45,905 bases of DNA. Origin: a virus (lineage: Duplodnaviria; Heunggongvirae; Uroviricota; Caudoviricetes). A program made the position numbers and the translations under genes. Positions 1 through 45,905 of this stretch are shown here, piece after piece. The stretch is taken from positions 1 through 45,905 of the IMG/VR virus record IMGVR_UViG_643348547_000010; one strand, given 5' to 3'. The notes under the pieces are model-generated. The model worked only from the letters and a program-made list of their open reading frames with translations. It had not been told where the DNA came from and searched no databases. How positions within the stretch are numbered: the first letter of the stretch is position 1; every line of letters begins with the position of its first letter.

Positions 1-367
1 ATGAAGAAAGTTTTTCTTTGCGCCATCTTAGCCTCCTTAAGCTATCCGGCTATCGCCTCATCATTGCAGGATCAACTCTCTGCTGTCGCAGAAGCGGAAC
101 AGCAAGGTAAAAATGAAGAGCAAAGGCAGCATGACGAATGGGTCGCGGAGCGCAACAGGGAAATCCAGCAAGAGAAGCAACGTCGCGCAAACGCCCAGGC
201 CGCCGCTAACAAAAGAGCGGCAACGGCAGCGGTAAATAAGAAAGCTCGTCAGGATAAACTGGACGCCGAAGCCTCTGCGGATAAAAAACGCGATCAAAGT
301 TATGAAGATGAGCTACGCAGCTTAGAGATTCAGAAACAAAAACTGGCGCTGGCGAAAGAAGAAGCCC
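1..367 (+). pseudogene. Secreted coiled-coil protein gene, 5' portion, interrupted by IS629 (continues at 3948)
   Basis: ORF starts at 1 with signal-peptide-like N-terminus (MKKVFLCAILASLSYPAIA), Lys/Glu/Gln-rich body; reading frame runs into IS629 left end at 368. Confidence 0.6.
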
Positions 368-421
368 TGAACCGCCCCGGGAATCCTGGAGACTAAACTT
401 CCTGAGAAAGAGGTAAACAGG

Positions 422-748
422 ATGACTAAAAATACTCGTTTTTCCCCCGAAGTCCGTCAACGGGCAGTCCGTATGGTTCTGGAAAGTCAGGGCGAATATG
501 ACTCACAATGGGCGACAATTTGTTCCATTGCCCCAAAGATTGGCTGTACACCGGAGACTCTGCGTGTCTGGGTACGCCAGCATGAGCGGGATACCGGAGG
601 CGGTGATGGCGGGCTCACCACCGCTGAACGTCAGCGTCTGAAAGAGCTGGAACGTGAAAATCGTGAACTGCGCCGCAGTAACGATATCCTTCGCCAGGCT
701 TCCGCTTATTTTGCGAAGGCGGAGTTCGACCGCCTCTGGAAAAAGTGA
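422..748 (+). CDS. IS629 OrfA (IS3-family transposase N-terminal HTH protein)
   Basis: 108-aa [25 protein letters not shown]..., near-identical to orfA of the copies at 14287 and 15893-16219. Confidence 0.9.
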
Positions 749-1162
749 TGCCACTGCTGGATAAGCTGCGTAAGCTGTACGGGGTCGGACCGGTATGCAG
801 TGAACTACATATTGCCCCGTCAACGTATTACCACTGTCAGCAACAGCGACATCATCCTGATAAACGCAGTGCCCGTGCGCAGCGCGATGACTGGCTGAAG
901 AAAGAGATACTGCGCGTATACGATGGGAATCATCAGGTATACGGTGTGCGTAAAGTCTGGCGTCAGTTGTTACGGGAAGGAATCAGGGTAGCCAGATGTA
1001 CAGTGGCGCGCCTCATGGCGGTTATGGGACTTGCCGGTGTTCTCCGGGGTAAAAAGGTCCGCACTACCGTCAGCCGGAAAGCCGTTGCCGCAGGCGACCG
1101 CGTAAACCGTCAGTTTGTGGCAGAACGTCCTGACCAGTTGTGGGTGGCTGATTTTACTTACG
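745..1162 (+). pseudogene. IS629 orfB, 5' part, interrupted by group II intron
   Basis: Translation identical to intact OrfB (14610-15500) up to ...QLWVADFTY, then diverges exactly at the intron 5' end. Confidence 0.8.
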
Positions 1163-1818
1163 GTGTGCCCGGAGTTCAGGGCGGGCATGGATGCTTAAAT
1201 GAACCGCGAGTCTGTCTGGAATATTGAACCGGTAACTCACGATGAGAAACCCAACAATCCCACCGGGTGTGACGGTGGAGAACCTGAGCGGCAGTGACCT
1301 GCGGCATGCCCGCAGGGTGATGTAACCCGCTGACAACGGGGATTGAGGCGAGATCACTAAGCCGAGATGATCCTCAAGGTTAAGTACTGAAAGGCTGAAG
1401 AACATGAACCCGTTAATCCGCCTCTGTGGGTTGAAAACGTCACCACGGCCTACGTGATCTGACAGGCCGTGCAGGAGGAACTGGCAGTGATACGTAAGCA
1501 CTGCCGGTCGAAGGTGTTTTGACATGTATGCGAAACACCGGGGCAGCAGCGTCTATCACGCTTGCGTTGCTGACTTCTGCCAACTTGCGGCAAGCAAGGA
1601 TAAAGAGTGCGACGGGCAGCCTCCTCAGTATGCCTGAGTCCAGGCAGGTAAACCGGGGAAGGTCAGCGACGGATGTTAAGGGGGCATGGCTCCGATGACG
1701 CGCTGGCTGGCGGAGCTTCCGTAGTAGTCCGCGATGGGGAAAGCCCATTACATGGCGAAGGGAAGCAGTTTGAATGTGTTTGCGACGTGAATTAACTGAC
1801 CTAACGAGGTGAAGACCT

Positions 1819-3342
1819 TTGATAATCAGCGAAATGCAACGCAAGCTTGCCACATGGGCAGCCACCGATCCGTCCCTACGGATTCAACGGCTGCTGCGTC
1901 TAATAACACAACCAGAATGGCTGGCTGAAGCGGCGCGGATCACGCTTTCATCAAAGGGGGCCCATACCCCCGGCGTTGATGGCGTGAACAAAACAATGCT
2001 ACAGGCCAGACTGGCTGTTGAGCTGCAAATCCTCAGGGATGAATTACTCTCAGGCCACTACCAGCCCTTGCCCGCCAGACGGGTTTACATCCCTAAAAGC
2101 AACGGCAAACTGCGACCACTGGGTATCCCCGCGTTGCGGGATCGTATTGTTCAGCGGGCCATGCTGATGGCGATGGAGCCGATATGGGAGAGTGATTTTC
2201 ATACGCTCTCATATGGCTTCCGGCCTGAGCGCAGTGTCCACCACGCGATCCGCACGGTGAAATTACAGCTCACAGACTGCGGTGAAACCCGGGGACGCTG
2301 GGTGATTGAAGGCGACCTGTCCAGTTACTTCGACACCGTACATCATCGACTGCTGATGAAGGCTGTACGCCGCAGGATCAGTGACGCACGTTTCATGACT
2401 CTGCTGTGGAAAACCATCAAGGCGGGACATATCGATGTCGGTCTCTTTCGGGCGGCCAGTGAAGGTGTGCCACAGGGCGGTGTTATATCGCCGCTATTAT
2501 CGAACATCATGCTGAATGAGTTCGATCAATACCTGCATGAGCGCTACCTGAGCGGGAAAGCCAGAAAAGATCGGTGGTACTGGAATAACAGTATCCAACG
2601 GGGCCGAAGTACGGCGGTCAGAGAAAACTGGCAGTGGAAACCCGCGGTGGCGTACTGCCGCTATGCCGATGATTTTGTCCTCATCGTCAAAGGCACCAAA
2701 GCACAGGCGGAAGCCATCAGGGAGGAGTGTCGGGGTGTGCTCGAAGGCAGTCTGAAACTCAGGCTGAACATGGATAAGACTAAAATCACCCATGTTAATG
2801 ACGGCTTTATCTTTCTGGGGCACAGGATCATTCGCAAACGCAGTCGTTATGGCGAGATGCGAGTGGTCTCAACGATCCCGCAGGAGAAAGCCAGAAACTT
2901 CGCCGCATCGCTGACAGCACTGTTATCAGGCAACTACAGTGAAAGCAAAGTCGATATGGCTGAACAACTCAACCGAAAACTGAAAGGCTGGGCCATGTTC
3001 TATCAGTTCGTTGATTTTAAGGCCAAAGTCTTCAGTTATATCGACCGTGTCGTGTTCTGGAAGCTGGCTCACTGGCTGGCCCGCAAATACCGTACAGGTA
3101 TCGCTTCCCTGATGAGGTGGTGGTGTAAATCACCGAAACCGGGTCAGAGCAAAACGTGGGTTTTATTTGGTAAAACCAATCACGGCAAGCTCAGCGGCGA
3201 AATACTGTACCGGTTGGTGGGGCAAGGCAAGAAGCTGTTCCGCTGGCGGCTACCCGAAGGTAATCCCTATCTGAGGACGGAGACCAGAAACACGTATACA
3301 TCGCGCTTTACAGAAGTGGCAATGGCGTTCGCCAGCATTTAA
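1819..3342 (+). CDS. Group II intron-encoded reverse transcriptase/maturase
   Basis: 507-aa ORF with RT palm motifs (FDTVHHRLL, YADDFVLIV) and C-terminal maturase-like region; no HNH/En motifs visible. Confidence 0.9.
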   Translation: MIISEMQRKLATWAATDPSLRIQRLLRLITQPEWLAEAARITLSSKGAHTPGVDGVNKTMLQARLAVELQILRDELLSGHYQPLPARRVYIPKSNGKLRPLGIPALRDRIVQRAMLMAMEPIWESDFHTLSYGFRPERSVHHAIRTVKLQLTDCGETRGRWVIEGDLSSYFDTVHHRLLMKAVRRRISDARFMTLLWKTIKAGHIDVGLFRAASEGVPQGGVISPLLSNIMLNEFDQYLHERYLSGKARKDRWYWNNSIQRGRSTAVRENWQWKPAVAYCRYADDFVLIVKGTKAQAEAIREECRGVLEGSLKLRLNMDKTKITHVNDGFIFLGHRIIRKRSRYGEMRVVSTIPQEKARNFAASLTALLSGNYSESKVDMAEQLNRKLKGWAMFYQFVDFKAKVFSYIDRVVFWKLAHWLARKYRTGIASLMRWWCKSPKPGQSKTWVLFGKTNHGKLSGEILYRLVGQGKKLFRWRLPEGNPYLRTETRNTYTSRFTEVAMAFASI

Positions 3343-3347
3343 ATGGA

Positions 3348-3381
3348 GAGCCGGATGCGCTGAAAGGTGCACGTCCGGTTC
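3348..3381 (+). ncRNA. Group II intron domain V
   Basis: GAGCCGGATGCGCTGAAAGGTGCACGTCCGGTTC: 34-nt hairpin with AGC triad and GNRA-type loop, located just after the IEP stop and followed by a short domain VI-like hairpin. Confidence 0.8.
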
Positions 3382-3404
3382 GGGGAGGAGAGGCAGGGAA
3401 ATAG

Positions 3405-3905
<501 letters not shown>

Positions 3906-3947
3906 GTTCACAGATAAAACACTCTCCAGGAAACCCGGGGCGGTTCA

Positions 3948-4124
3948 GCCCGCGTTAAGCGAGAAAACGAATTTATCGATCAGGAACTGAAGCACAAAGC
4001 TGCGCAAACCGATGTGGTGCAATCTGAAGCTGACGCAAACAGAAATATGACTGAAGGCGGTCGCGATCTGATGAAAAGCGTGGGCAAAGCAGAAGAGAAC
4101 AAATCGGACAGCTGGTTTAATTAA
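3948..4124 (+). pseudogene. Secreted coiled-coil protein gene, 3' portion (downstream of IS629)
   Basis: Removing the IS and one GCCC copy joins 1-367 to this segment in frame (...KEEARVKRENEFIDQELKHK...SDSWFN stop at 4122-4124). Confidence 0.55.
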
Positions 4125-6422: not shown

Positions 6423-6449
6423 CCCGCAATATTTTGCGGGCTTTTTTTT
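6423..6449. terminator. GC hairpin plus T8 run abutting the tailspike stop codon
   Basis: CCCGCAATATTTTGCGGGCTTTTTTTT; the U-run is on the plus strand, so it is a better plus-strand than minus-strand terminator. Confidence 0.4.
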
Positions 6450-9400
6450 AACGTTCTTCCAGAGACTGAACCCGCTCTTTTATCTTATCCATTTCTCTGC
6501 GCTGCCATGCTGCCTCGATATAGAATAAGAGATCAGGTCTGACCCCCCATCTAGATCCTGCTGGCGTTATTTCAACGCGCTCAATGATGTCTTCTATTAC
6601 CATCACTGGATTATCATCCTCATCAACAATGATGCTCCCGTCATTATCAGTCAGCGGCATTTCCCTTTGGCCAGTAATGACGTCATCATATACTGCGGGA
6701 TAATCGTCATAGCAAAGAAAGGCATAGCGGCATGTTGTGCTTTCTTCTTCCATGAGTCCGTGAGAAATAAGAACATCACGAAGTTGCTGCGCGATTACAC
6801 CATGATGTATCCTCGCCCCTTCTTCCCCCTTTATAGCGACAGCGTTCAGCCATTTATAAGCGATATACCTGACGTCACCCCAGGCATCCAGCAATGCTTC
6901 GTCAGGAGAGACCGGCTCTGTCTTTAATGTTCCGTCACTGGTAACCACAGGATTGGAGCCAAGATAAACTGTCGAGAACCTGTTTCCCGGACCACCAAGA
7001 GCATTTACATTATCAAGATAAGGTTTAACATCTCCGTTCTCAAAAAGATGTTCGAGTGCGTTATATACCGCGCGACGTGGAGTACTGCTTCCGGAACCAT
7101 GCAACGTTATCATTGCACCATCTGCTGAAGACGTTGTTTCACCGCCGCTAACGATTAATCTCTGAGCGGTAACATCATCAGACGGTACTTTCTTCGCAAT
7201 AATGGCGTAATTACCCTCAAGTTTGACTTCCGCGCGAACTTGTCCTGATGTACCTGCATGGACAGTCAGTGACTGGACGGCAACATCATCTGTGAAATCA
7301 ACGGGTACAGGAACCGTCCTCACGCCTGACGTCGACATAAAAGTAGGAAGCGTTCTGTTAGGAGTGGCTCCGTAGACAAAATCCCTTGAAACAAATTCTT
7401 CCTGTTTAATTTTCACCCTGAAACAATACAAATCAGCCGGGTGACCATCGTGAACATAAGGATATTTTCTGTTGTTATCCCCTATGCTCCATGGGTTTAG
7501 AAAGTCTTCCCCACCGAAAATGTAGTACAGCCAGTTGTCTTTGATACAAACTGAACCAACACCAACCGCAGAGTTAACTATTCCGCCCTGATAAATCTGA
7601 TCAGTAACATTAACCCACTCTACATTATCCAGACTCCACTCATTGACGTTAACTCTGGTCATAAATGTTCTTGGATAATTTCCTGCATAACGGTTATCAG
7701 GTTCTCCTCCTTCCCACTCACCAAATGCGCGCTCACTGCCAAAAATAATCAGCTCATCGCCAACTTTGGCAAAAGGAAGGTTTGAGTGATGAACATTATT
7801 TGGGAAGCGAAGAGAATTCCATGATGTACCTAAATCAGAGCTTCTGTGCAATGAACTACCGGGTTGAGTACTTAATGTCCCCCTGGTCGTCAGATACAGA
7901 ATGCCATCATAATATTTTACACATGGCTCAGATGCATTCGCCTCATATTCTACAGGTATGCGTCTGCGAACAAAGCTACCAGGAGAACCGAAAGCATCAG
8001 AGAAATAGAGTATCCCAAGCTCGCGTGGACCAATATCACCATTATGGTAGCCAACAGCAAAACTGTTATCGCTAATCGTCGCAAAACTGTGAATCTCAGT
8101 AACAGGAGTGCTTCCGTCAACAAAAGAAGGAATAGTTCCAAGACTGGTTTTTCTCCATGGTGACGAGTGAAATGATGTGCCAAAACTCCAGTATCTACCC
8201 TCGTTATTCTGATCCACATCCTGGGTATTTTGCGTCGTAACTGTAAAGGTATTTTTATCAATAACAGTAGTCACCGTCATATTCCCGGTAACACCTGTAA
8301 CACCAGAGTTTGAGAAGTTGACAAAATCACCAGCAAATAATCCGTGATCAGTAATGCGAATATAAGCGACTTGCTGATTTGCTGCTTTCGTTATACCACC
8401 ATAAACGCGAAGGCTGCGACTCATTGGGCGATCCCACAACTCTGCAACCTGCAGTTTATTTCCTCTCACGGTCCGCGTCTCAATTACAGCAAAAAGGCGA
8501 TTTCTGACAACCCCCATACTCATGCAGTGATAGTTAACTGTGGGATAGTTTTCATGTAAATCTGTAAGCCATTCCGGCGTTGTCCAGGTCTTCCCGTCAT
8601 CTCCTGAGCGAACCCATGCAACATGGAGGTTATTTACACCATGGCGGTCTCCAGCCATAAAAGGCGCATAGATGACATTGTCATATACAAACGTTTTATC
8701 CTGCGTCCAGGCGTTGTACCACGGTGTATCTGTAATTTTAAATAACTCTCCCTGGATAAAATCTTCAGAAGCATAAAAAAGAGGCTGGCCCGGTATTCTC
8801 TCAAATAAAAAACGAGCATTTTTAAATCGACTGACATCCGGAAGAGTTGATACTTTAAAAGTAAGCCCTAATCCGTCAATTTTATAACCTGGAGATGAGG
8901 CTTCAAGGCACGCGCTTATTGCAGTGGAATCGTCATTTATACCATCACCAACAGCTCCAAAATCTTTGGGGCTAATAGCATCACGCATTTTATCCTGGAA
9001 CGTTCGGTACACAGCCCCAGAACCATACTGAATAAACCAACCAAAACCACCAACAACTCCGGCGATTGCAGCATCGACATAATTACGCATTGAGCGATTA
9101 TTTACAGCGTCCTGCTCAAATGATGGATCTGCAAGGTTAGAAATTTTGTTTTGCTTTGCATCGTAATATTTTGCAAGCAAAGATGGTTTCATCAATGCAC
9201 GTCTGAACCACCCAAAACATTGCTGGATCAGCATCGTCAGGTAGTCAAAGGCATCTTCATGCACTTCGGGGAAAAATTTTCCCTGATTGCGAAGGTCTGT
9301 GTCCTGCACTACATCAAGCACACGATCTATCGTAATTCGCCATCCAGTAGCAAGCGGAGACGGAAGAACCACAGAACCGCCACTATAAGTGCCCGCCACA

Positions 9401-9567
9401 GTTACCGTATAACCGGTATCCAGGACCAATTCTGTTACGTTCCCGTTCAGGTCAGACACCTGAACAACCAGGTCTGATTTTCTGAAAATTCGAAAAGTAT
9501 ACGGAAACGATGTCGTAACGCCGTTACCGGTGTATTCGTTGTGGTCAACTTCGGTTGAGACCGTCAT
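6448..9567 (-). CDS. Tail fibre/tailspike: T7 gp17-like N-terminal adaptor, glycosidase-like body with Asp-box motifs, C-terminal intramolecular chaperone (peptidase S74-like)
   Basis: N-terminus MTVSTEVDHNEYTGNGVTTSFPYTF... and NLADPSFEQDAVNNRS resemble tail-fibre N-domains; DFGAVGDGINDDSTAI beta-helix-type motif; Asp-boxes SGDDGKTW and SSDLGTSW; C-terminal ...SDGTLKTEP...HHGVIAQQL... chaperone-like. Confidence 0.8.
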   Translation of the reverse strand: MTVSTEVDHNEYTGNGVTTSFPYTFRIFRKSDLVVQVSDLNGNVTELVLDTGYTVTVAGTYSGGSVVLPSPLATGWRITIDRVLDVVQDTDLRNQGKFFPEVHEDAFDYLTMLIQQCFGWFRRALMKPSLLAKYYDAKQNKISNLADPSFEQDAVNNRSMRNYVDAAIAGVVGGFGWFIQYGSGAVYRTFQDKMRDAISPKDFGAVGDGINDDSTAISACLEASSPGYKIDGLGLTFKVSTLPDVSRFKNARFLFERIPGQPLFYASEDFIQGELFKITDTPWYNAWTQDKTFVYDNVIYAPFMAGDRHGVNNLHVAWVRSGDDGKTWTTPEWLTDLHENYPTVNYHCMSMGVVRNRLFAVIETRTVRGNKLQVAELWDRPMSRSLRVYGGITKAANQQVAYIRITDHGLFAGDFVNFSNSGVTGVTGNMTVTTVIDKNTFTVTTQNTQDVDQNNEGRYWSFGTSFHSSPWRKTSLGTIPSFVDGSTPVTEIHSFATISDNSFAVGYHNGDIGPRELGILYFSDAFGSPGSFVRRRIPVEYEANASEPCVKYYDGILYLTTRGTLSTQPGSSLHRSSDLGTSWNSLRFPNNVHHSNLPFAKVGDELIIFGSERAFGEWEGGEPDNRYAGNYPRTFMTRVNVNEWSLDNVEWVNVTDQIYQGGIVNSAVGVGSVCIKDNWLYYIFGGEDFLNPWSIGDNNRKYPYVHDGHPADLYCFRVKIKQEEFVSRDFVYGATPNRTLPTFMSTSGVRTVPVPVDFTDDVAVQSLTVHAGTSGQVRAEVKLEGNYAIIAKKVPSDDVTAQRLIVSGGETTSSADGAMITLHGSGSSTPRRAVYNALEHLFENGDVKPYLDNVNALGGPGNRFSTVYLGSNPVVTSDGTLKTEPVSPDEALLDAWGDVRYIAYKWLNAVAIKGEEGARIHHGVIAQQLRDVLISHGLMEEESTTCRYAFLCYDDYPAVYDDVITGQREMPLTDNDGSIIVDEDDNPVMVIEDIIERVEITPAGSRWGVRPDLLFYIEAAWQRREMDKIKERVQSLEER

Positions 9568-10067: not shown

Positions 10068-10180
10068 TTTACATCGCACTCCTCTTGTGCCATAGTAATC
10101 GGGCACTGGCAAAATCCAGTGCCGGGATTGGTCTCCCGGATTACTAAGTGGCGCATACCACGCCAGACGTGGTTTTTTTA
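10059..10180 (+). ncRNA. Candidate structured leader or small RNA upstream of antirepressor gene
   Basis: About 120 nt between promoter/operator and an intrinsic terminator; contains stem-loops CACTGG...CCAGTG and CCGGGA...TCCCGG; no convincing ORF (track ORF 10119-10310 starts at GTG with no RBS). Confidence 0.3.
10158..10180 (+). terminator. Intrinsic terminator
   Basis: CCACGCCAGACGTGG followed by T7. Confidence 0.6.
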
Positions 10181-10337
10181 TGCGTATAGCACAGTCATGC
10201 CAGAATTATGGTGGGCTGAATGGGGGTCCGAAAGGACGCCGGTACCACTTAGGCCGGTAAGACCAACTCCGTTCAGTTCACCACCATCTGATTGGTCTCA
10301 GCGGTGGTGATGTAATTCGCTAAGTGGAGACGCCATC

Positions 10338-10994
10338 ATGAACGCTCAACTCATCCCCGTATTCAACGGCACTATCGCCAACGAAACCACTCTTCTCGTT
10401 AATGCTCGCGATTTACATACTTTTCTTGGGGTAGGTAAACGCTTTGCATCGTGGATTACAGAACGCATTGCTGAATATGGTTTCGTTGAAAATCAGGACT
10501 ATATTTTGGTTTCCCCAAATCGGGAAATCAAAGGTCGAGGAGGCGATCGCCGTAGCAAAGACTATCACCTCACCCTCGATACGGCCAAAGAAACTGCGAT
10601 GGTCGAGCGCAACGAAAAAGGCCGCCAGATACGCCGATACTTCATTGAATGCGAGAAACGTTTAAGACAACAAGAAACAAAGGTGGAGAAGGTCTTGTCA
10701 GGCTTCATGCCCGCCATTATGGAGGCGATCAAACTGGAAGACAAAAAAGAATACAGTGCCCCACTGAAGCCAGGCTACCGTAGCCTGATTCATTCGCCGT
10801 CTGGTGTTCTCGGCCTGACGGAGAACTCACTGCTGATGAATCTGCTGAACCAGTTGCAGGAAGACGGGCACGATGTATCGGGCGCGGCGGCGGAACTGAC
10901 CACCATGTTCTGCTACATCGTCGGTGTGAGCAAATGCCTGCGTGATATCCAGACGCACGCGGAGTACATCAACGACAAGGCAGGATTCTTCTGA
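10338..10994 (+). CDS. Antirepressor, AntA-like N-terminal domain plus C-terminal domain
   Basis: N-terminal DLHTFLGVGKRFASWITERIAEYGFVENQDYIL pattern typical of AntA/AntB-type antirepressors; RBS GGAG upstream. Confidence 0.7.
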   Translation: MNAQLIPVFNGTIANETTLLVNARDLHTFLGVGKRFASWITERIAEYGFVENQDYILVSPNREIKGRGGDRRSKDYHLTLDTAKETAMVERNEKGRQIRRYFIECEKRLRQQETKVEKVLSGFMPAIMEAIKLEDKKEYSAPLKPGYRSLIHSPSGVLGLTENSLLMNLLNQLQEDGHDVSGAAAELTTMFCYIVGVSKCLRDIQTHAEYINDKAGFF

Positions 10995-12389: not shown

Positions 12390-12578
12390 TTATTTTATTA
12401 TTCTTCCGAACAATACAATTCCGAATACTACAAAGCCGAACCATGCCGCTGCACGCAACAGAGATTCCAATTGAAACCCATTTTTATCAAAATGTATGAA
12501 TAGCATAAAAACGCTGCACATATTAGTACAATAAAAGTTATTTGAACCATCATATCTCCTTTTATTGCGGAGTGACAT
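12390..12578 (-). CDS. Small hypothetical protein with C-terminal hydrophobic segment
   Basis: 62-aa ORF only; overlaps the end of the upstream gene. Confidence 0.3.
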   Translation of the reverse strand: MSLRNKRRYDGSNNFYCTNMCSVFMLFIHFDKNGFQLESLLRAAAWFGFVVFGIVLFGRIIK

Positions 12579-14232
12579 CCTGTGGTCGCCACCAGTATGT
12601 CTGGTTAAACTCTTTCTTCGAACGTTGCTCCATTTTACGCAAATAGCCTGGTGAAAAATACTCCTGCATCTGGTTAAAGATCATGTGATCGAGAGCCGCC
12701 TTCAAGTACCAGAGATTCGCACCAGGCATCAAACCTTTCCCCAGCTTCACCAGATCACCACCAGTCTGCTCACTCTTCCCTTCCACAGCATTTAACGGTA
12801 TGCCCTGAGCAATCTTCACTACGTCATCAACCAGACCAGCTACCGGGCCAAGCATCGACGCCAGCGCGCCGCTTCCGTACCTAGTGTGATCTGACAATAA
12901 AAAGTCACCGTAAAGGCCAAGACCACCACCTTTCAGTAGAGCACCAAGCCAGAATTTTGCGGCATCTTCTCCTGTCATCTCTCGAGGATTACGACCAGAC
13001 GCAAGGTCGTTAAGTTGCTGCGACAAAGCGCCAAGAATGGTCGTACTGGCAATAAACGTCGCAATATATGCCGCACGCCCACCAGCAGACGGCATACCCA
13101 TAGCGCGTGACCAGTGACGCATAACAACCGAGATAGGGAACGATTTAAACAGGAAAACACTTCTCGTTAATTCACCTTTCCATGTTCCACGCTGAATACC
13201 AGAACCGGTTATCAGTTGCTCACGTGCTCCCGGTGTAATAACAGCCATATCAACTTCTTCAGTTACGGCACCGAGCAGTTTACGCATTGCCTCAAATTTC
13301 ACGCGTTCAGGCTCACCAAGATGTTTAACTGCTGAATCAGGGATACGCATAATGCTTTCCGGTGTCAGCATCGTATTATTACCGTTCCCCCAGTCCTCCT
13401 GTTTCGCCAGCTTCCATACGCTCCAGTCTGTGTCAGTAATCCCTTTGCTTTTCAGGATACGAAAATCAGAGTCATCGAGGCTACGAAGGTCTGGTGTCCG
13501 TGACACTACTTCTCCCAGGCTTCCCATCATGGTTACGCCATAGGCGCGCTTGTGCGCATCTGACCATGCTGTAAGCCCACTGGCACGCATTACCGCCGTT
13601 GCCGCCCAACGAGACACTGACGGCCCCATATTATCCATCGCCCAGCGGTTAACGCTGCCAAGTAGAGATTCCATCGCCAGACCAGCGCGGCGCGCCCGCG
13701 CAAGTTCTGTACGGTTCGTTGGGTCCATAGCTTCAAGCTGGTTGCGGAATAACTGGTTCATTGGAAGGTTGGTAACCTTCGCAGACAGATACATGGTTCC
13801 AAGATCAGAGAACGATGACAGCAACGCGGATCCGAGTCTGCTGGCAACCAGCCAGTTGCGGATATTGTCAGACCATCGCGCGATGTGCGGATTCGCTACA
13901 GGCTGTGTCTTTCCGGAAATAAAGTTGTACAGATTCTCTGTGTTGTTCGCCAGCCGCTCGACTTTACCGGTTTTACTCGGGTTAGCTGTTGCCGTTTCTG
14001 CCTTCACCTGATCAAGAAGAGAGCGGAAAACATGATCGGGGTTTGGGCCATATGTTTCCACCAGTGCAATATCTTTACTGATACCTTCCAGGTGACCGAC
14101 CATGATTTCCCATAGAGAGCGATCGCCATAAAGTTGCTGATATTGCAGATAGGAATCTGCATCTTTGAAATGTATCTGTCGTGATGCATTACCACGGTTA
14201 GCACGTGCGCCGGAAATTCGCATTCCGGTATC
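12562..14232 (-). pseudogene. Internal virion (ejection/core) protein gene, C-terminal portion, separated from its 5' part by IS629 copies
   Basis: 557 codons of phage sequence downstream of IS629 left end; the track ORF (12562-14325) starts inside the IS. Confidence 0.7.
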
Positions 14233-14286
14233 TGAACCGCCCCGGGAATCCTGGAGACTAAACTTCCTGAGAAAGAGGTAAACAGG

Positions 14287-14613
14287 ATGACTAAAAATAC
14301 TCGTTTTTCCCCCGAAGTCCGTCAACGGGCAGTCCGTATGGTTCTGGAAAGTCAGAGCGAATATGACTCACAATGGGCGACAATTTGTTCCATTGCTCCA
14401 AAGATTGGCTGTACGCCGGAGACTCTGCGTGTCTGGGTTCGCCAGCATGAGCGGGATACCGGGGGCGGTGATGGAGGGCTCACCACCGCTGAACGTCAGC
14501 GTCTGAAAGAGCTGGAACGTGAAAATCGTGAACTGCGCCGCAGTAACGATATCCTTCGCCAGGCTTCCGCTTATTTTGCGAAGGCGGAGTTCGACCGCCT
14601 CTGGAAAAAATGA
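14287..14613 (+). CDS. IS629 OrfA
   Basis: 108-aa ORF, same protein as 422-748 apart from one residue. Confidence 0.9.
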
Positions 14614-15500
14614 TGCCACTGCTGGATAAGCTGCGTGAGCAGTACGGGGTCGGACCGCTATGCAGCGAACTGCATATTGCCCCGTCAACGTATTACCACT
14701 GTCAGCAACAGCGACATCATCCGGATAAACGCAGTGCCCGTGCGCAGCGCGATGACTGGCTGAAGAAAGAGATACAGCGCGTATACGATGAAAATCACAA
14801 GGTATACGGTGTGCGTAAAGTCTGGCGTCAGTTGTTACGGGAAGGTATCAGAGTGGCCAGATGCACTGTGGCACGTCTCATGGCGGTTATGGGACTTGCC
14901 GGTGTTCTCCGGGGTAAAAAGGTCCGTACGACCATCAGCCGGAAAGCCGTTGCCGCAGGCGACCGCGTAAACCGTCAGTTCGTGGCAGAACGACCTGACC
15001 AGCTGTGGGTGGCTGATTTTACTTACGTCAGCACATGGCGGGGCTTCGTCTATGTGGCGTTCATCATTGATGTGTTTGCCGGATACATCGTGGGGTGGCG
15101 GGTCTCATCGTCCATGGAAACGACATTCGTGCTGGATGCACTGGAGCAGGCGTTATGGGCCCGTCGACCGTCCGGCACGGTCCATCACAGTGATAAAGGT
15201 TCTCAGTATGTATCGCTGGCCTACACACAGCGGCTTAAGGAAGCCGGATTACTGGCATCAACAGGAAGTACAGGCGACTCGTATGACAACGCGATGGCGG
15301 AGAGCATCAATGGTCTTTACAAAGCGGAGGTAATACACCGTAAGAGCTGGAAAAACCGTGCAGAAGTGGAACTGGCCACACTCACGTGGGTGGACTGGTA
15401 TAACAATCGACGATTGCTGGAAAGGCTGGGCCATACTCCTCCGGCAGAAGCAGAAAAAGCTTATTATGCTTCCATCGGAAACGATGATCTGGCAGCCTGA
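14610..15500 (+). CDS. IS629 OrfB (DDE transposase catalytic part)
   Basis: 296-aa ORF overlapping orfA in the -1 frame as in IS3-family elements. Confidence 0.9.
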
Positions 15501-15542
15501 GTTCACAGATAAAACACTCTCCAGGAAACCCGGGGCGGTTCA

Positions 15543-15896
15543 GTCGCCTGCGGCAACGGCTTTCCGGCTGATGGTCGTACGGACCTTTTTACCCCGGAGA
15601 ACACCGGCAAGTCCCATAACCGCCATGAGACGTGCCACAGTGCATCTGGCCACTCTGATACCTTCCCGTAACAACTGACGCCAGACTTTACGCACACCGT
15701 ATACCTTGTGATTTTCATCGTATACGCGCTGTATCTCTTTCTTCAGCCAGTCATCGCGCTGCGCACGGGCACTGCGTTTATCCGGATGATGTCGCTGTTG
15801 CTGACAGTGGTAATACGTTGACGGGGCAATATGCAGTTCGCTGCATAGCGGTCCGACCCCGTACTGCTCACGCAGCTTATCCAGCAGTGGCATCAT
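15543..15896 (-). pseudogene. IS629 orfB, truncated
   Basis: Encodes first 117 aa of OrfB then runs into the neighbouring IS end. Confidence 0.8.
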
Positions 15897-16219
15897 TTTT
15901 TCCAGAGGCGGTCGAACTCCGCCTTCGCAAAATAAGCGGAAGCCTGGCGAAGGATATCGTTACTGCGGCGCAGTTCACGATTTTCACGTTCCAGCTCTTT
16001 CAGACGCTGACGTTCAGCGGTGGTGAGCCCTCCATCACCGCCCCCGGTATCCCGCTCATGCTGGCGAACCCAGACACGCAGAGTCTCCGGCGTACAGCCA
16101 GTCTTTGGAGCAATGGAACAAATTGTCGCCCATTGTGAGTCATATTCGCTCTGACTTTCCAGAACCATACGGACTGCCCGTTGACGGACTTCGGGGGAAA
16201 AACGAGTATTTTTAGTCAT
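15893..16219 (-). CDS. IS629 OrfA (in truncated copy)
   Basis: 108-aa ORF matching the other orfA copies. Confidence 0.85.
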
Positions 16220-16273
16220 CCTGTTTACCTCTTTCTCAGGAAGTTTAGTCTCCAGGATTCCCGGGGCGGTTCA

Positions 16274-17076
16274 GTAAGCTTATTCAGCCCACCAGTAGCG
16301 ATCGTGTTATAAGCCTCTCCAAGAAATGAAGACAACTCGGCATCGTTCATCAGTTGTCCATCGGCTCGGATATAATATTTGCGATCCAGCTTACCTATAA
16401 CATCGCTAACCCACTTATCCTTTGATACTGCCCCAACCTTTTCCATAGAATGATGTTGAGGGATCCCCCAGTTTTCGAGATAGCCAATGTCCCCACCAGC
16501 ATCATTAAACCGGCGGCGCAGCAGCTCTGTAACTTCTCTCCACGCCTTAGCACCGTTTCTTGCTTTAGCATTGCCAGTATTTTGCCCCCGCATTTCATAT
16601 ACCAGGTCACGTACGCCCGCTTCATCTTCAAACAGACCAAAAAAGCGAGGATCAACTGCTTCGAATGCCTCCTGCAATTGACTCAATGCATAATCACGGG
16701 TGGCTTTTGTTCTGGATTCAACAGAGAGGAAATTAGATTTACCGTCTGCATTAAAAGCTATAGTACGGTTAAGAGCGCCAAGTTTCCCATCAGCCCCTTG
16801 ATAGCTATTGATAAATTTATCCAATCTCTGACGTGCGGCTATAGTGAGAGCCACACGACGTTTCTTTAATGTCGCTTCTCGCTGTAATTCTTCAGATGCC
16901 AATTGTGCTGCACGATACAACCGTTCTGATTCGGAAAGTTGTCGCCACGACATCGGGTCATCACGAGCAATGGAGCGCATATTTCGATAAATGCGGTCTT
17001 CAATGTTCTGTATTTCTCGCGCCGTTAACGTGCGCTGCGCCGCCTGCTGGACCGCTTGTATACATTCCTGTCTCAT
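16274..17076 (-). pseudogene. Internal virion (ejection/core) protein gene, N-terminal portion, truncated by IS629
   Basis: Track ORF 16225-17076 reads from phage sequence into the IS end (last 16 residues IS-derived). Confidence 0.7.
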
Positions 17077-31014: not shown

Positions 31015-31091
31015 GTGGCATTAGCTCACTTGGACAGAGCAACCGCCTTCTAAGCGGTTGGTCGCAGGTTCGAATCCTGCATGCCACGCCA
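31015..31091 (+). tRNA. tRNA-Arg (anticodon UCU), phage-encoded
   Basis: Cloverleaf by hand: acceptor GTGGCAT/ATGCCAC, D-arm GCTC/GAGC, anticodon stem ACCGC/GCGGT with loop CTTCTAA, T-arm GCAGG-TTCGAAT-CCTGC, discriminator G, CCA; sequence differs from host argU. Confidence 0.85.
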
Positions 31092-44654: not shown

Positions 44655-45905
44655 TTATTCCCCCGCTATCCACTTCTCAAACTTCGACGGGGAGAACGGA
44701 ATCAGATCCGTATGCTCCCCGTCAATCCATGAATCAATCATATCGGCCCACTGCTGCAACATGTAGGCGCGCTGTCTGGCGTATTCCGCTTTGTTATATA
44801 CGGCGCGCACACCTTTCTGCTCATGTGCCAGAGCCTTTTCAATCCAGTCTGAAGGATAACCAGCCTCATGCAACAACGTACTGGCTGTACGGCGCATATC
44901 GTGTACGGTGAAGCCCTGAATATGCTCACCATCTTCATTTATTATTTTCACCGTTCTGTCGATCAGAGAGTTCAGCGCGGCATTAGATAATGGCTTCCGG
45001 AAATTGTAACGACCAGGAACCAGATATTCACTTCCACCAGCGCACATCTGCAACCCAACCAATATATCCTGTGCCTGTTTAGGCAGGTAAATAACGTGCG
45101 CCCGGCTTCCCTTCATGCGGTCTGAAGGAATTGTCCATGTCCATTTTTTAAAATCTATTTCATCCCACGTTGCATTGGTGAATTCGCCTTTACGAACCAT
45201 AGTGATAAGCACCAGCTTTAAAGCCATTTTCATAGTGCCCATAGCACCAATGGCATCCAGCGTGCGGAAGAACAGGCCAATTTCTTCTGGTGTCAGTGTT
45301 CGCTCTCGTGGTTTAAATATGGCGATAGACGAAGGTTTAATGTCAGCCGCAGGATTAAACAAACCATGACCACGGTCATTGGCGTGACGGTATACGCTGC
45401 TGATGATCTCCCTGGCCTGTACTGCTGTTGCCCGACCACCGCGTTCGACAATCCGGTCACACAAATCACGAACCATCGATGTGGTAATTTCAGCCATCAT
45501 TTTGTTACCAAGAACAGGAAGTATGTCACGGTCGATCACCGCCTGCTTCATTGCGCGGGTACTGTCAGCCAGGATGACGTGTTTCATATAACTGTCGGTA
45601 TGTACCGCAAACGTCTCGGCACCACGAATCTTTTTGATACCGTCACGTTTAGCCGCAGCCGGTGACTGGCCTGCTTTAAGCAGCTTCTTTGCAGCAATCA
45701 GTTCTTCTCGCGCTTCTGCCAGGCTGATACCGTCACGCCCATACTGCCCGATTACCAGTGTTTCGCGGCGACCGTTGATACGGTAGTCATAGCGAAACGA
45801 GACCGTGCCTGACGTAAGCACAGCTACATACAGCCCGTCACGATCGGAGACCTTGTACAGTTTGTCCTGCGGCTTGAGGTTTTTTAATTTTGTATCGGTA
45901 AGCAC
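44655..45905 (-). CDS. int: Tyrosine integrase (P4/CP4-type), 5' end at or beyond the window edge
   Basis: 416-aa ORF; N-terminal LTDTKLKNLKPQDKLYKVSDRDGLYVAV and C-terminal catalytic region (...HDMRRTASTLLHEAGYPSDWIEKALAHE...); reaches the last base of the window. Confidence 0.9.
   Translation of the reverse strand: MLTDTKLKNLKPQDKLYKVSDRDGLYVAVLTSGTVSFRYDYRINGRRETLVIGQYGRDGISLAEAREELIAAKKLLKAGQSPAAAKRDGIKKIRGAETFAVHTDSYMKHVILADSTRAMKQAVIDRDILPVLGNKMMAEITTSMVRDLCDRIVERGGRATAVQAREIISSVYRHANDRGHGLFNPAADIKPSSIAIFKPRERTLTPEEIGLFFRTLDAIGAMGTMKMALKLVLITMVRKGEFTNATWDEIDFKKWTWTIPSDRMKGSRAHVIYLPKQAQDILVGLQMCAGGSEYLVPGRYNFRKPLSNAALNSLIDRTVKIINEDGEHIQGFTVHDMRRTASTLLHEAGYPSDWIEKALAHEQKGVRAVYNKAEYARQRAYMLQQWADMIDSWIDGEHTDLIPFSPSKFEKWIAGE

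What the first reader, a model, noticed from the sequence alone, without database searches (positions are those of the whole stretch)
6448..9567. Tailspike domain architecture points to a glycan-degrading receptor-binding protein with an autocleaving chaperone
The 1039-aa protein combines a T7 gp17-like N-terminal attachment domain, a DFGAVGDG-type motif typical of right-handed beta-helix depolymerases, two Asp-box (SxDxGxTW) motifs typical of sialidase-like beta-propellers, and a C-terminal region matching the intramolecular chaperone domain that self-cleaves in endosialidases, K5 lyase and T5 L-shaped fibres. The receptor is probably a surface polysaccharide (capsule or O-antigen), but the specificity cannot be read from sequence.
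Basis: partly seen in the sequence, partly recalled or inferred. Interest (0 to 1): 0.5.

Follow-up and report, generated by a model that had tools for sequence, protein, structure and literature searches.

The report
K1-capsule endosialidase tailspike of a prophage
This gene encodes a well-known kind of phage tail enzyme, an endosialidase that binds and cuts the polysialic-acid K1 capsule of E. coli and trims off its own folding helper; near-identical copies are already deposited, annotated and described in print.

Summary
It is a phage endosialidase tailspike. Residues 205-876 match the four Pfam endosialidase domains (E down to 1.7e-232) and are 65.7% identical to the crystallised K1F enzyme endoNF. 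The active-site residues and the Ser877/Lys882 self-cleavage pair are conserved.

Residues 234-1030 are 98.7% identical to the CUS-3 endosialidase, which GenBank annotates with direct-assay evidence. A phage with a 99.5%-identical protein, vB_EcoP_ZX5, plaques on a K1 strain.

There is no right-handed beta-helix. DFGAVGDG opens the endosialidase N-terminal extension, and K1E has DFGAKGDG. The N-terminal anchor is the epsilon15/phiV10 type. It resembles T7 gp17 only in fold and does not reach the Pfam family threshold.

The gene is a mosaic: a phiV10-like anchor joined to a CUS-3-like catalytic and chaperone module. It occurs in 71 of 5426 complete E. coli genomes, where RefSeq annotates it as an endosialidase. 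The ZX5 paper already describes the domain layout.

In this window an insertion sequence splits a virion structural gene, so the prophage is probably defective.

Verdict: ordinary and already known.

The parts
6448..9567 (-). Complete tailspike gene (1039 aa plus stop). Predicted masses: precursor 115.7 kDa, mature part 97.1 kDa, released C-terminal fragment 18.6 kDa.
   Evidence: ORF list and translation; masses; 100% nt identity to E. coli GN02050 WP_016236143.1.
9058..9567 (-). N-terminal virion-anchor domain, aa 1-170: a beta-sandwich at about aa 9-82 followed by a helix. It is the epsilon15/phiV10 (Uetakevirus) type.
   Evidence: 97% aa identity to the phiv142-3 tail fibre over aa 1-198. 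66-70% identity to the tailspikes of phages VB_ST_E15 and SPN1S and of an O157 typing phage. PDB Dpo31/8ck1 at E 1.3e-31. AF2 model with pLDDT 85-91 for aa 11-80. Foldseek hits to podovirus fibre N-termini, including T7 gp17.
8956..9057 (-). Neck/linker, aa 171-204. It is shared with GH28-type phiV10-like spikes and ends in the start of the DFG motif.
   Evidence: Alignment with phiv142-3.
8941..8964 (-). DFGAVGDG motif, aa 202-209. It lies in a roughly 37-residue segment that is homologous in endosialidases and in pectate-lyase-like beta-helix spikes.
   Evidence: Motif position. hhalign of an endosialidase profile against the phiv142-3 spike: probability 97.3%, 37 columns only. Reciprocal sub-threshold Pfam cross-hits.
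8869..8973 (-). Mosaic junction, aa 199-233. It is 43% identical to each 'parent'. Upstream the gene is phiV10-like and downstream it is CUS-3-like.
   Evidence: blastn breakpoints at gene nt 596 and nt 699. Codon alignment. Identities. The segment was found only in the same 71 E. coli genomes.
8755..8955 (-). Endosialidase N-terminal extension, aa 205-271.
   Evidence: PF12218, E 6e-32.
7405..8754 (-). Catalytic six-bladed beta-propeller, aa 272-721. It contains Asp-boxes at 8584-8607 and 7819-7842. Active-site residues are H309 (8641-8643), R515 (8023-8025), E547 (7927-7929), R562 (7882-7884) and R613 (7729-7731).
   Evidence: PF12217, E 1.7e-232. PDB 1v0e/3gvl, E = 0. Residue mapping onto endoNF H350, R549, E581, R596 and R647; the residue list comes from PMC12632334.
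8173..8421 (-). Beta-barrel domain inserted in the propeller, aa 383-465. In endoNF this domain holds a polysialic-acid binding site.
   Evidence: PF12195, E 3.2e-46. The binding sites of endoNF are summarised in PMC12632334.
6940..7404 (-). Stalk (triple beta-helix region), aa 722-876. It includes R863 (6979-6981), the counterpart of endoNF R897.
   Evidence: PF12219, E 8.4e-78. Residue mapping. The role of R897 is taken from PMC8326128.
6451..6939 (-). C-terminal intramolecular chaperone / Peptidase S74 domain, aa 877-1039. The cleavage serine is S877 (6937-6939) and the dyad lysine is K882 (6922-6924).
   Evidence: PF13884, E 1.7e-10. 3gw6, E 2.7e-57. The S911/K916 dyad of endoNF is described in PMC8326128. 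Mapping.
6423..6440 (.). GC-rich hairpin 8 nt after the stop codon. Its T-run reads on the + strand and an A-run reads on the gene strand. It is probably a transcript end.
   Evidence: Terminator-like site; sequence.

Best explanation
The gene encodes the tailspike of an epsilon15/phiV10-like (Uetakevirus) temperate podovirus that is integrated as a prophage next to yfgI in an E. coli chromosome. The protein is an endo-alpha-2,8-sialidase of the endoNF/CUS-3 family (endo-N-acetylneuraminidase; CAZy GH58 from my own knowledge). The mechanism below is inferred by homology to endoNF. Three chains are folded and trimerised with the help of the C-terminal chaperone domain (aa 877-1039). Once the triple-beta-helix stalk has formed, the Ser877/Lys882 dyad, assisted by Arg863, cuts the chain before Ser877. 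This releases an 18.6-kDa fragment and leaves a stable 97-kDa mature spike. The N-terminal beta-sandwich domain (aa 1 to about 170) plugs the trimer into the tail hub. The beta-propeller (H309, R515, E547, R562, R613) cleaves the K1 polysialic-acid capsule. The beta-barrel and stalk provide further polysialic-acid binding sites, so the virion can bind the capsule and tunnel through it to the outer membrane. The gene is a mosaic. A phiV10-type anchor is joined, within a short linker shared by beta-helix spikes and endosialidases, to a catalytic and chaperone module that is 99.3% identical in DNA to that of the unrelated P22-like prophage CUS-3. Shown here: the homology, the conserved residues, the mosaic structure, the distribution and the genomic context. 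Inferred: enzymatic activity, self-cleavage, trimer formation and the recombination history.
For: Pfam finds all four endosialidase domains plus S74 above threshold. In the PDB, endoNF 1v0e/3gvl matches at E = 0 with 65.7% identity over 665 residues, phi92-type 4hiz at 9.4e-271, and the chaperone structure 3gw6 at 2.7e-57. The catalytic residues and cleavage dyad are conserved; the residue lists come from PMC12632334 and PMC8326128. The gene shares 99.3-99.4% nt and 98.7% aa identity with CUS-3 siaK1, which is annotated 'endo-alpha-sialidase activity, IDA, PMID 16689790'. It shares 99.5% aa identity with ORF7 of phage vB_EcoP_ZX5, a plaque-forming Uetakevirus isolated on an O87:H52:K1 host. 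The rest of the window is 97-98% identical to phiV10-like phages. The gene is present in 71 of 5426 complete E. coli genomes, including IHE3034, APEC O1:K1:H7 and O2:K1:H5, and CSF isolates. The anchor domain is homologous to epsilon15-like tailspikes and to Carin-1 Dpo31 D1, which sits at the base of that virion.
Against: No enzymatic or cleavage data exist for this exact protein or for ZX5 ORF7; the ZX5 paper reports domains only. endoNF K410 is Gly369 here, and the stalk residue Q853 is Met819. According to the deep-mutational-scanning paper, K410 is dispensable during infection. In this window the prophage carries an IS insertion in a virion structural gene, so the spike may never be mounted on an infectious particle in this strain. 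The capsule type of the window's own host is not visible in the window.
Confidence: 0.95

Rival explanations
1. One reading: the protein contains a right-handed beta-helix (pectate-lyase-like) depolymerase domain in addition to the sialidase propeller, and its polysaccharide target is unknown.
For: The DFGAVGDG motif is present. There is a sub-threshold Pect-lyase_RHGA_epim hit, E 0.036. The parental-type phiv142-3 spike, with the same motif, does hit PF12708 at 1.3e-11.
Against: The PF12708 hit covers only aa 201-221 and scores 14.3 bits against a cut-off of 27. Homology to the beta-helix spike stops after 37 residues. Residues 205-876 are fully accounted for by endosialidase domains and by the endoNF crystal structure chains. 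All endosialidases examined (K1F, K1E, phi92, CUS-3) carry the GxGDG motif.
Confidence: 0.02
2. In this particular genome the gene is a stranded remnant. The prophage is defective, so the endosialidase no longer acts as a virion receptor-binding protein. At most it is released on lysis, or it serves as a recombination reservoir for other K1 phages.
For: An IS3-family (IS629-like) element plus an inverted partial copy (14232-16274) splits the 824-aa virion structural protein gene, which is intact in GN02050. A second IS, carrying a group II intron, sits at the prophage/host junction.
Against: The tailspike ORF itself is intact and 100% identical to copies in apparently intact prophages. The integrase, lysis and remaining structural genes are present. 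I did not show that the split gene is essential.
Confidence: 0.45
3. The enzyme has a shifted or broader specificity than plain K1. It might prefer, or be blocked by, O-acetylated K1 polysialic acid, or it might also cleave the mixed alpha-2,8/2,9 K92 polymer as endoN92 does.
For: The phi92 enzyme is annotated as cleaving both polymers. The stalk-site residue Q853 is replaced by Met here, and K410 by Gly. The deep-mutational-scanning paper implicates barrel and stalk residues in discriminating among K1 strains.
Against: 98.7% identity to the CUS-3 K1 endosialidase. The ZX5 host is K1. Carrier genomes that are labelled by serotype are K1.
Confidence: 0.1

Closest known systems
Escherichia phage vB_EcoP_ZX5 ORF7 (QTH80017.1; Uetakevirus; PMC9782041)
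   Same: Same length (1039 aa) with only 5 aa differences, and the same flanking genes. The paper already lists the T7-like N-terminus, the endosialidase middle and the intramolecular chaperone C-terminus, and reports a K1 host.
   Different: ZX5 is a free, plaque-forming phage. The window is an integrated copy with IS insertions. The GenBank product name there is only 'tail fiber domain-containing protein'.
CUS-3 endosialidase tailspike siaK1 (ABQ88383.1; P22-like prophage of E. coli K1 RS218)
   Same: The catalytic head, stalk and chaperone are 98.7% identical in protein and 99.3% in DNA over aa 234-1030. Both come from temperate podovirus prophages of K1 strains. Both prophage types co-reside in IHE3034, EC69, N54, MS20659 and OZ546911.
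   Different: CUS-3 has the P22 gp9 Head_binding domain (PF09008) at its N-terminus, whereas the window has the epsilon15-type anchor. The last 10 or so residues and the 3' flank differ. CUS-3 carries neuO downstream; the window does not.
endoNF, the tailspike of phage K1F (PDB 1v0e, 3gvl, 3gw6)
   Same: Same domain order from the N-terminal extension to the chaperone, with 65.7% identity. H350, R549, E581, R596, R647, R897, S911 and K916 are all conserved.
   Different: The K1F anchor is the true T7 gp17 type. The window has a 7-residue insertion (FVDGSTP, aa 482-488), Gly for K410 and Met for Q853.
phiV10/epsilon15-type tailspikes (for example the phiv142-3 tail fibre QGF19612.1)
   Same: The first 198 aa are 97% identical, and the genomic position between the ant region and the lysis genes is the same.
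   Different: After the shared DFGAxGDG linker these proteins continue as a pectate-lyase-like beta-helix (PF12708). They have no S74 chaperone.
Carin-1 Dpo31/Dpo36 tailspike (PDB 28lx, 8ck1; PMC13317679)
   Same: It is the closest solved relative of the anchor: E 1.3e-31 over aa 1-209, and 46% identity in the Foldseek alignment. [quoted passage not shown]
   Different: It comes from a marine Cobetia podovirus and its catalytic domain is unrelated.

Membership tests
Phage endosialidase (endo-N-acetylneuraminidase, endoNF family) | Six-bladed catalytic beta-propeller homologous to endoNF | tested here: met
   PF12217, E 1.7e-232, full profile 1-367. 1v0e/3gvl at E = 0, 65.7% identity.
Phage endosialidase (endo-N-acetylneuraminidase, endoNF family) | Active-site residues equivalent to endoNF H350, R549, E581, R596 and R647 | tested here: met
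   H309, R515, E547, R562 and R613. The residue list comes from PMC12632334.
Phage endosialidase (endo-N-acetylneuraminidase, endoNF family) | Beta-barrel insert and stalk domain carrying the extra polysialic-acid binding sites | tested here: met
   PF12195 at 3.2e-46 and PF12219 at 8.4e-78. R803 and S814 are conserved, and Q853 is replaced by M819. I recalled the site residues from memory; only the residue types at those endoNF positions were checked here.
Phage endosialidase (endo-N-acetylneuraminidase, endoNF family) | Two Asp-boxes in the propeller | tested here: met
   aa 321-328 and 576-583, aligned with SGDDGQTW and SRDIGQTW of endoNF.
Phage endosialidase (endo-N-acetylneuraminidase, endoNF family) | Endo-cleavage of alpha-2,8-polysialic acid | not testable with these tools
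   Direct-assay evidence is annotated only for CUS-3, which is 98.7% identical. The host of the near-identical phage ZX5 is K1.
Peptidase S74 / C-terminal intramolecular chaperone domain | Domain homology | tested here: met
   PF13884, 41.4 bits against a cut-off of 22. 3gw6 at 2.7e-57. Further hits to GA-1 neck appendage 3gud and other spikes.
Peptidase S74 / C-terminal intramolecular chaperone domain | Ser-Lys catalytic dyad (endoNF S911/K916) plus the stalk arginine (R897) | tested here: met
   S877, K882 and R863. Their roles are taken from PMC8326128.
Peptidase S74 / C-terminal intramolecular chaperone domain | Actual autoproteolytic release of the domain | not testable with these tools
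   The predicted fragment is 18.6 kDa. This needs SDS-PAGE and an S877A mutant.
T7 gp17 N-terminal domain (Pfam PF03906) | Score above the family's gathering threshold | tested here: not met
   10.4 bits against 25.2, E 0.51, with no stretch passing. tblastn with the anchor finds no T7-like phage at E <= 1e-5 among the listed hits.
T7 gp17 N-terminal domain (Pfam PF03906) | Same fold as solved gp17 N-termini | tested here: inconclusive
   Foldseek gives 7ey9_a at 2.1e-4, 7boz_a at 4.5e-4, and 7ey7_a with TM 0.57 and rmsd 3.5 over 90 columns. The model's mean pLDDT is only 69 and is good only for aa 11-80. hhalign is collinear but has probability 16%.
epsilon15/phiV10-type (Uetakevirus) tailspike anchor | Sequence homology to the N-termini of tailspikes of epsilon15-like phages, and the matching genome context | tested here: met
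   97% identity to phiv142-3. 66-70% identity to VB_ST_E15, SPN1S and an O157 typing phage. The window backbone is 97-98% identical to phiV10-like phages.
Right-handed beta-helix depolymerase (Pect-lyase_RHGA_epim / pectate lyase 3) | Profile match above threshold that extends into beta-helix coils | tested here: not met
   14.3 bits against 27, aa 201-221 only. Homology to a genuine beta-helix spike ends after 37 residues.

The most novel reading that the evidence does not exclude
The short 'RD..DFGAxGDGxxDDTxAI' segment may be a common joint that lets temperate podoviruses swap whole receptor-destroying modules. It would be a vestige of the first turn of a pectate-lyase-like beta-helix that survives at the front of every endosialidase. 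On this reading, an epsilon15-like lineage used it to replace a GH28-type O-antigen spike with an endosialidase. The module was later homogenised by recombination with the co-resident, unrelated CUS-3 prophage in ST95-type K1 strains. The 35-residue junction, 43% identical to either parent, would be the scar of the older fusion. That would make this a further, separately assembled K1 platform alongside the T7-like, SP6-like and P22-like podovirus platforms reviewed in PMC5380687 (which also lists the siphovirus 63D and the myovirus phi92).
Probability: 0.35. Interest if true: 0.3.

Novelty: already known. Interest (0 to 1): 0.15.

Why it matters
The practical value is limited. The analysis corrects the annotation: the receptor is the K1 capsule, not an 'unknown polysaccharide', and no beta-helix is present. 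It also shows that a second, epsilon15-like family of temperate phages in neonatal-meningitis, uropathogenic and avian-pathogenic K1 E. coli carries essentially the same endosialidase as CUS-3, sometimes in the same chromosome. That is a tidy example of module exchange between unrelated prophages. It may also be useful to anyone who mines prophages for K1-capsule depolymerases or K1-typing reagents. No new biology is implied.

Tried and rejected
- NCBIfam gave no hit for the protein.
- I tried to predict the structure of the endosialidase N-terminal extension from a five-phage alignment, to test whether it is a vestigial beta-helix turn. I used profile-profile comparison instead.
- I looked for a donor of the 35-residue junction segment. 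tblastn against phages and blastn against 5426 E. coli genomes found it only in the same ZX5-type genes, so no donor was identified.
- Three papers I wanted for the endoNF residue roles are not held. I took the residue lists from PMC12632334 and PMC8326128 instead.
- The exosialidase/BNR reading was rejected. BNR_2 is sub-threshold (16.8 bits against 31.4) and lies under the endosialidase propeller hit.
- The opposite-strand ORFs inside the gene (6667-6927, 7782-8075, 8344-8559, 9151-9477) were treated as spurious, because the minus-strand frame is fully explained.
- I did not test the capsule genotype of the carrier genomes directly. I used only the strain labels and the published ZX5 host.
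Full report
**Observation.** The window holds a single uninterrupted ORF at 6448-9567 on the minus strand: ATG start, 1039 codons plus stop. A GGAG lies shortly upstream of the ATG, and a GC-rich hairpin follows 8 nt after the stop.

**What the protein is.** Pfam places five above-threshold domains in a row:

| Domain | Residues | E-value |
|---|---|---|
| End_N_terminal | 205-271 | 6e-32 |
| End_beta_propel | 272-721 | 1.7e-232 |
| End_beta_barrel (inserted in the propeller) | 383-465 | 3.2e-46 |
| End_tail_spike | 722-876 | 8.4e-78 |
| Peptidase_S74 | 877-937 | 1.7e-10 |

- Against solved structures, residues 205-876 match the phage K1F endosialidase endoNF (1v0e, 3gvl) at E = 0, with 437 of 665 aligned residues identical.
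- The C-terminal 180 residues match the endoNF chaperone structure 3gw6 at 2.7e-57.
- I mapped the endoNF numbering through the alignment. The residues reported as catalytically critical are H350, R549, E581, R596 and R647 (PMC12632334). Here they are H309, R515, E547, R562 and R613.
- The self-cleavage dyad S911/K916 and the helper R897 (PMC8326128) are S877, K882 and R863.
- Predicted masses are 115.7 kDa for the precursor, 97.1 kDa for the mature spike and 18.6 kDa for the released domain.

**Specificity.**
- From gene nt 699 to nt 3091 the DNA is 99.3-99.4% identical to siaK1 of prophage CUS-3. This corresponds to 98.7% protein identity over aa 234-1030.
- GenBank annotates siaK1 with endo-alpha-sialidase activity from direct assay, PMID 16689790.
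- The whole gene is 99.7% identical in DNA to ORF7 of the temperate podovirus vB_EcoP_ZX5, with 5 amino-acid differences. That phage was isolated on E. coli YO1, typed O87:H52:K1.
- The target is therefore alpha-2,8-polysialic acid, the K1 capsule.

**The supposed beta-helix.**
- The Pect-lyase_RHGA_epim hit is below threshold (14.3 bits against 27) and spans only aa 201-221.
- An endosialidase profile of this region aligns with the genuine beta-helix spike of phiv142-3 for just 37 residues (probability 97.3%), and the similarity then stops.
- Conversely, the phiv142-3 spike gives a sub-threshold End_N_terminal hit over its first 26 positions.
- K1E (DFGAKGDG), phi92, CUS-3 and K1F all carry the GxGDG motif at the start of their N-terminal extension.
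- The motif is therefore real and is shared with beta-helix depolymerases, but here it opens an endosialidase, not a beta-helix.

**The N-terminal anchor.**
- Pfam Phage_T7_tail is far below threshold (10.4 bits against 25.2).
- By sequence the domain belongs to the epsilon15/phiV10 class. It is 97% identical to phiv142-3 over aa 1-198. It is 66-70% identical to the tailspikes of phages VB_ST_E15 and SPN1S and of an O157 typing phage, with distant relatives in many other podoviruses.
- Its nearest solved relative is Dpo31 of the marine podovirus Carin-1 (E 1.3e-31). [quoted passage not shown]
- An AlphaFold model built from 22 homologues is confident for the beta-sandwich (pLDDT 85-91 for aa 11-80) and poor elsewhere.
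- Foldseek retrieves fibre and spike N-termini from podovirus tail complexes, including T7 gp17 (7ey9_a at 2.1e-4, 7boz_a at 4.5e-4, 7ey7_a with TM 0.57).
- hhalign against T7 gp17 is collinear but weak, at probability 16%.
- 'T7 gp17-like' is thus acceptable as a description of the fold, but not as family membership.

**Context and mosaic origin.**
- The window runs from the host gene yfgI (1-367) to the start codon of a tyrosine integrase (44655-45905).
- Outside its IS insertions it is a phiV10-like prophage, 97-98% identical to phiv142-3, phiV10, ZX5 and HEMP4.
- The spike gene sits between the ant/C4 immunity region and the holin-endolysin genes, as in its relatives.
- Gene nt 1-596 follows phiv142-3, and nt 699-3091 follows CUS-3, a P22-like Lederbergvirus. 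The last 29 nt and the 3' flank follow ZX5 but not CUS-3.
- The 35 residues in between (aa 199-233) are only 43% identical to either parent.
- That junction occurs, at 99% identity or more, in exactly 71 of 5426 complete E. coli genomes. These are the same 71 that carry the full-length gene. They include IHE3034, APEC O1:K1:H7 and O2:K1:H5 strains, and CSF isolates.
- RefSeq already names the product 'endosialidase catalytic beta-propeller domain-containing protein'.
- At least five genomes (IHE3034, EC69, N54, MS20659, OZ546911) carry both this gene and a CUS-3-type spike. Recombination between co-resident prophages is therefore a plausible route for the near-identity of the catalytic modules. 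This is an inference.

**State of this copy.**
- Compared with the intact prophage of strain GN02050, the window has two insertions.
- An IS3-family, IS629-like element lies at 367-3948 and is itself interrupted by a group II intron. The evidence is an RT/maturase ORF at 1819-3342, an Rfam Intron_gpII match at 3346-3432, and ALIL frameshift pseudoknots.
- A second IS copy plus an inverted partial copy lies at 14232-16274. It splits the 824-aa virion structural protein gene (phrog_684) into two ORFs.
- The tailspike gene is intact, but the prophage in this window is probably unable to make infectious particles.

**Comparison with the literature and novelty.**
- The ZX5 paper (PMC9782041) already states that ORF7 has a T7-like tail-fibre N-terminus, an endosialidase middle and an intramolecular-chaperone C-terminus.
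- Module exchange among K1 phages (T7-like K1F, SP6-like K1E and K1-5, P22-like CUS-3) is textbook material (PMC5380687).
- The present gene adds nothing new in kind. At most, its epsilon15-like platform and its near-identity to CUS-3 have not been emphasised in print. A text search for endosialidase together with Uetakevirus, phiV10 or epsilon15 found only the ZX5 paper and general reviews.
- I rate it as already known, with low interest.

Noticed in passing
window 14232-16274: An IS3-family (IS629-like) element (14232-15543; OrfA 14287-14613, OrfB 14610-15500) plus an inverted partial copy (15543-16274) is inserted in the 824-aa virion structural protein gene (phrog_684). The gene is split into ORFs 16225-17076 and 12562-14325, so the prophage is probably defective.
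   Followed up: partly
window 367-3948: Another IS629-like copy lies at the prophage/host (yfgI) junction. It is interrupted at about 1162/3424 by a group II intron. The evidence is the RT-maturase ORF at 1819-3342 (RVT_1 + GIIM) and an Rfam Intron_gpII match at 3346-3432.
   Followed up: partly
window 10103-10288 (+), upstream of ant at 10338-10994: Rfam finds isrK (10103-10179) and C4 antisense RNA (10204-10288) just upstream of the anti-repressor gene. This looks like a P1/P7-style immI antisense control module in an epsilon15-like prophage, divergent from the tailspike gene.
   Followed up: no
window 31015-31091 (+): A tRNA-Arg (anticodon TCT) is encoded inside the prophage, as in phiV10 relatives.
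   Followed up: no
window 8869-8973 (aa 199-233 of the spike): The junction segment between the phiV10-like and CUS-3-like parts is only 43% identical to either. It has no closer relative in 50,697 phage records or 5426 E. coli genomes, apart from the same gene, so its source is unknown.
   Followed up: yes
E. coli IHE3034 NC_017628.1 at 2,717,358 and 2,886,645; also EC69, N54, MS20659, OZ546911: Several K1 strains are double lysogens. They carry both the P22-like CUS-3 spike and this epsilon15-like spike, whose endosialidase modules are about 99% identical in the copies compared here. Three genomes even have two copies of the junction segment.
   Followed up: partly
window 8023-8122 region (aa 482-488): There is a seven-residue insertion, FVDGSTP, relative to endoNF in a propeller loop. 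Because this region is near-identical to CUS-3, the insertion is also present there. Its significance is unknown.
   Followed up: no
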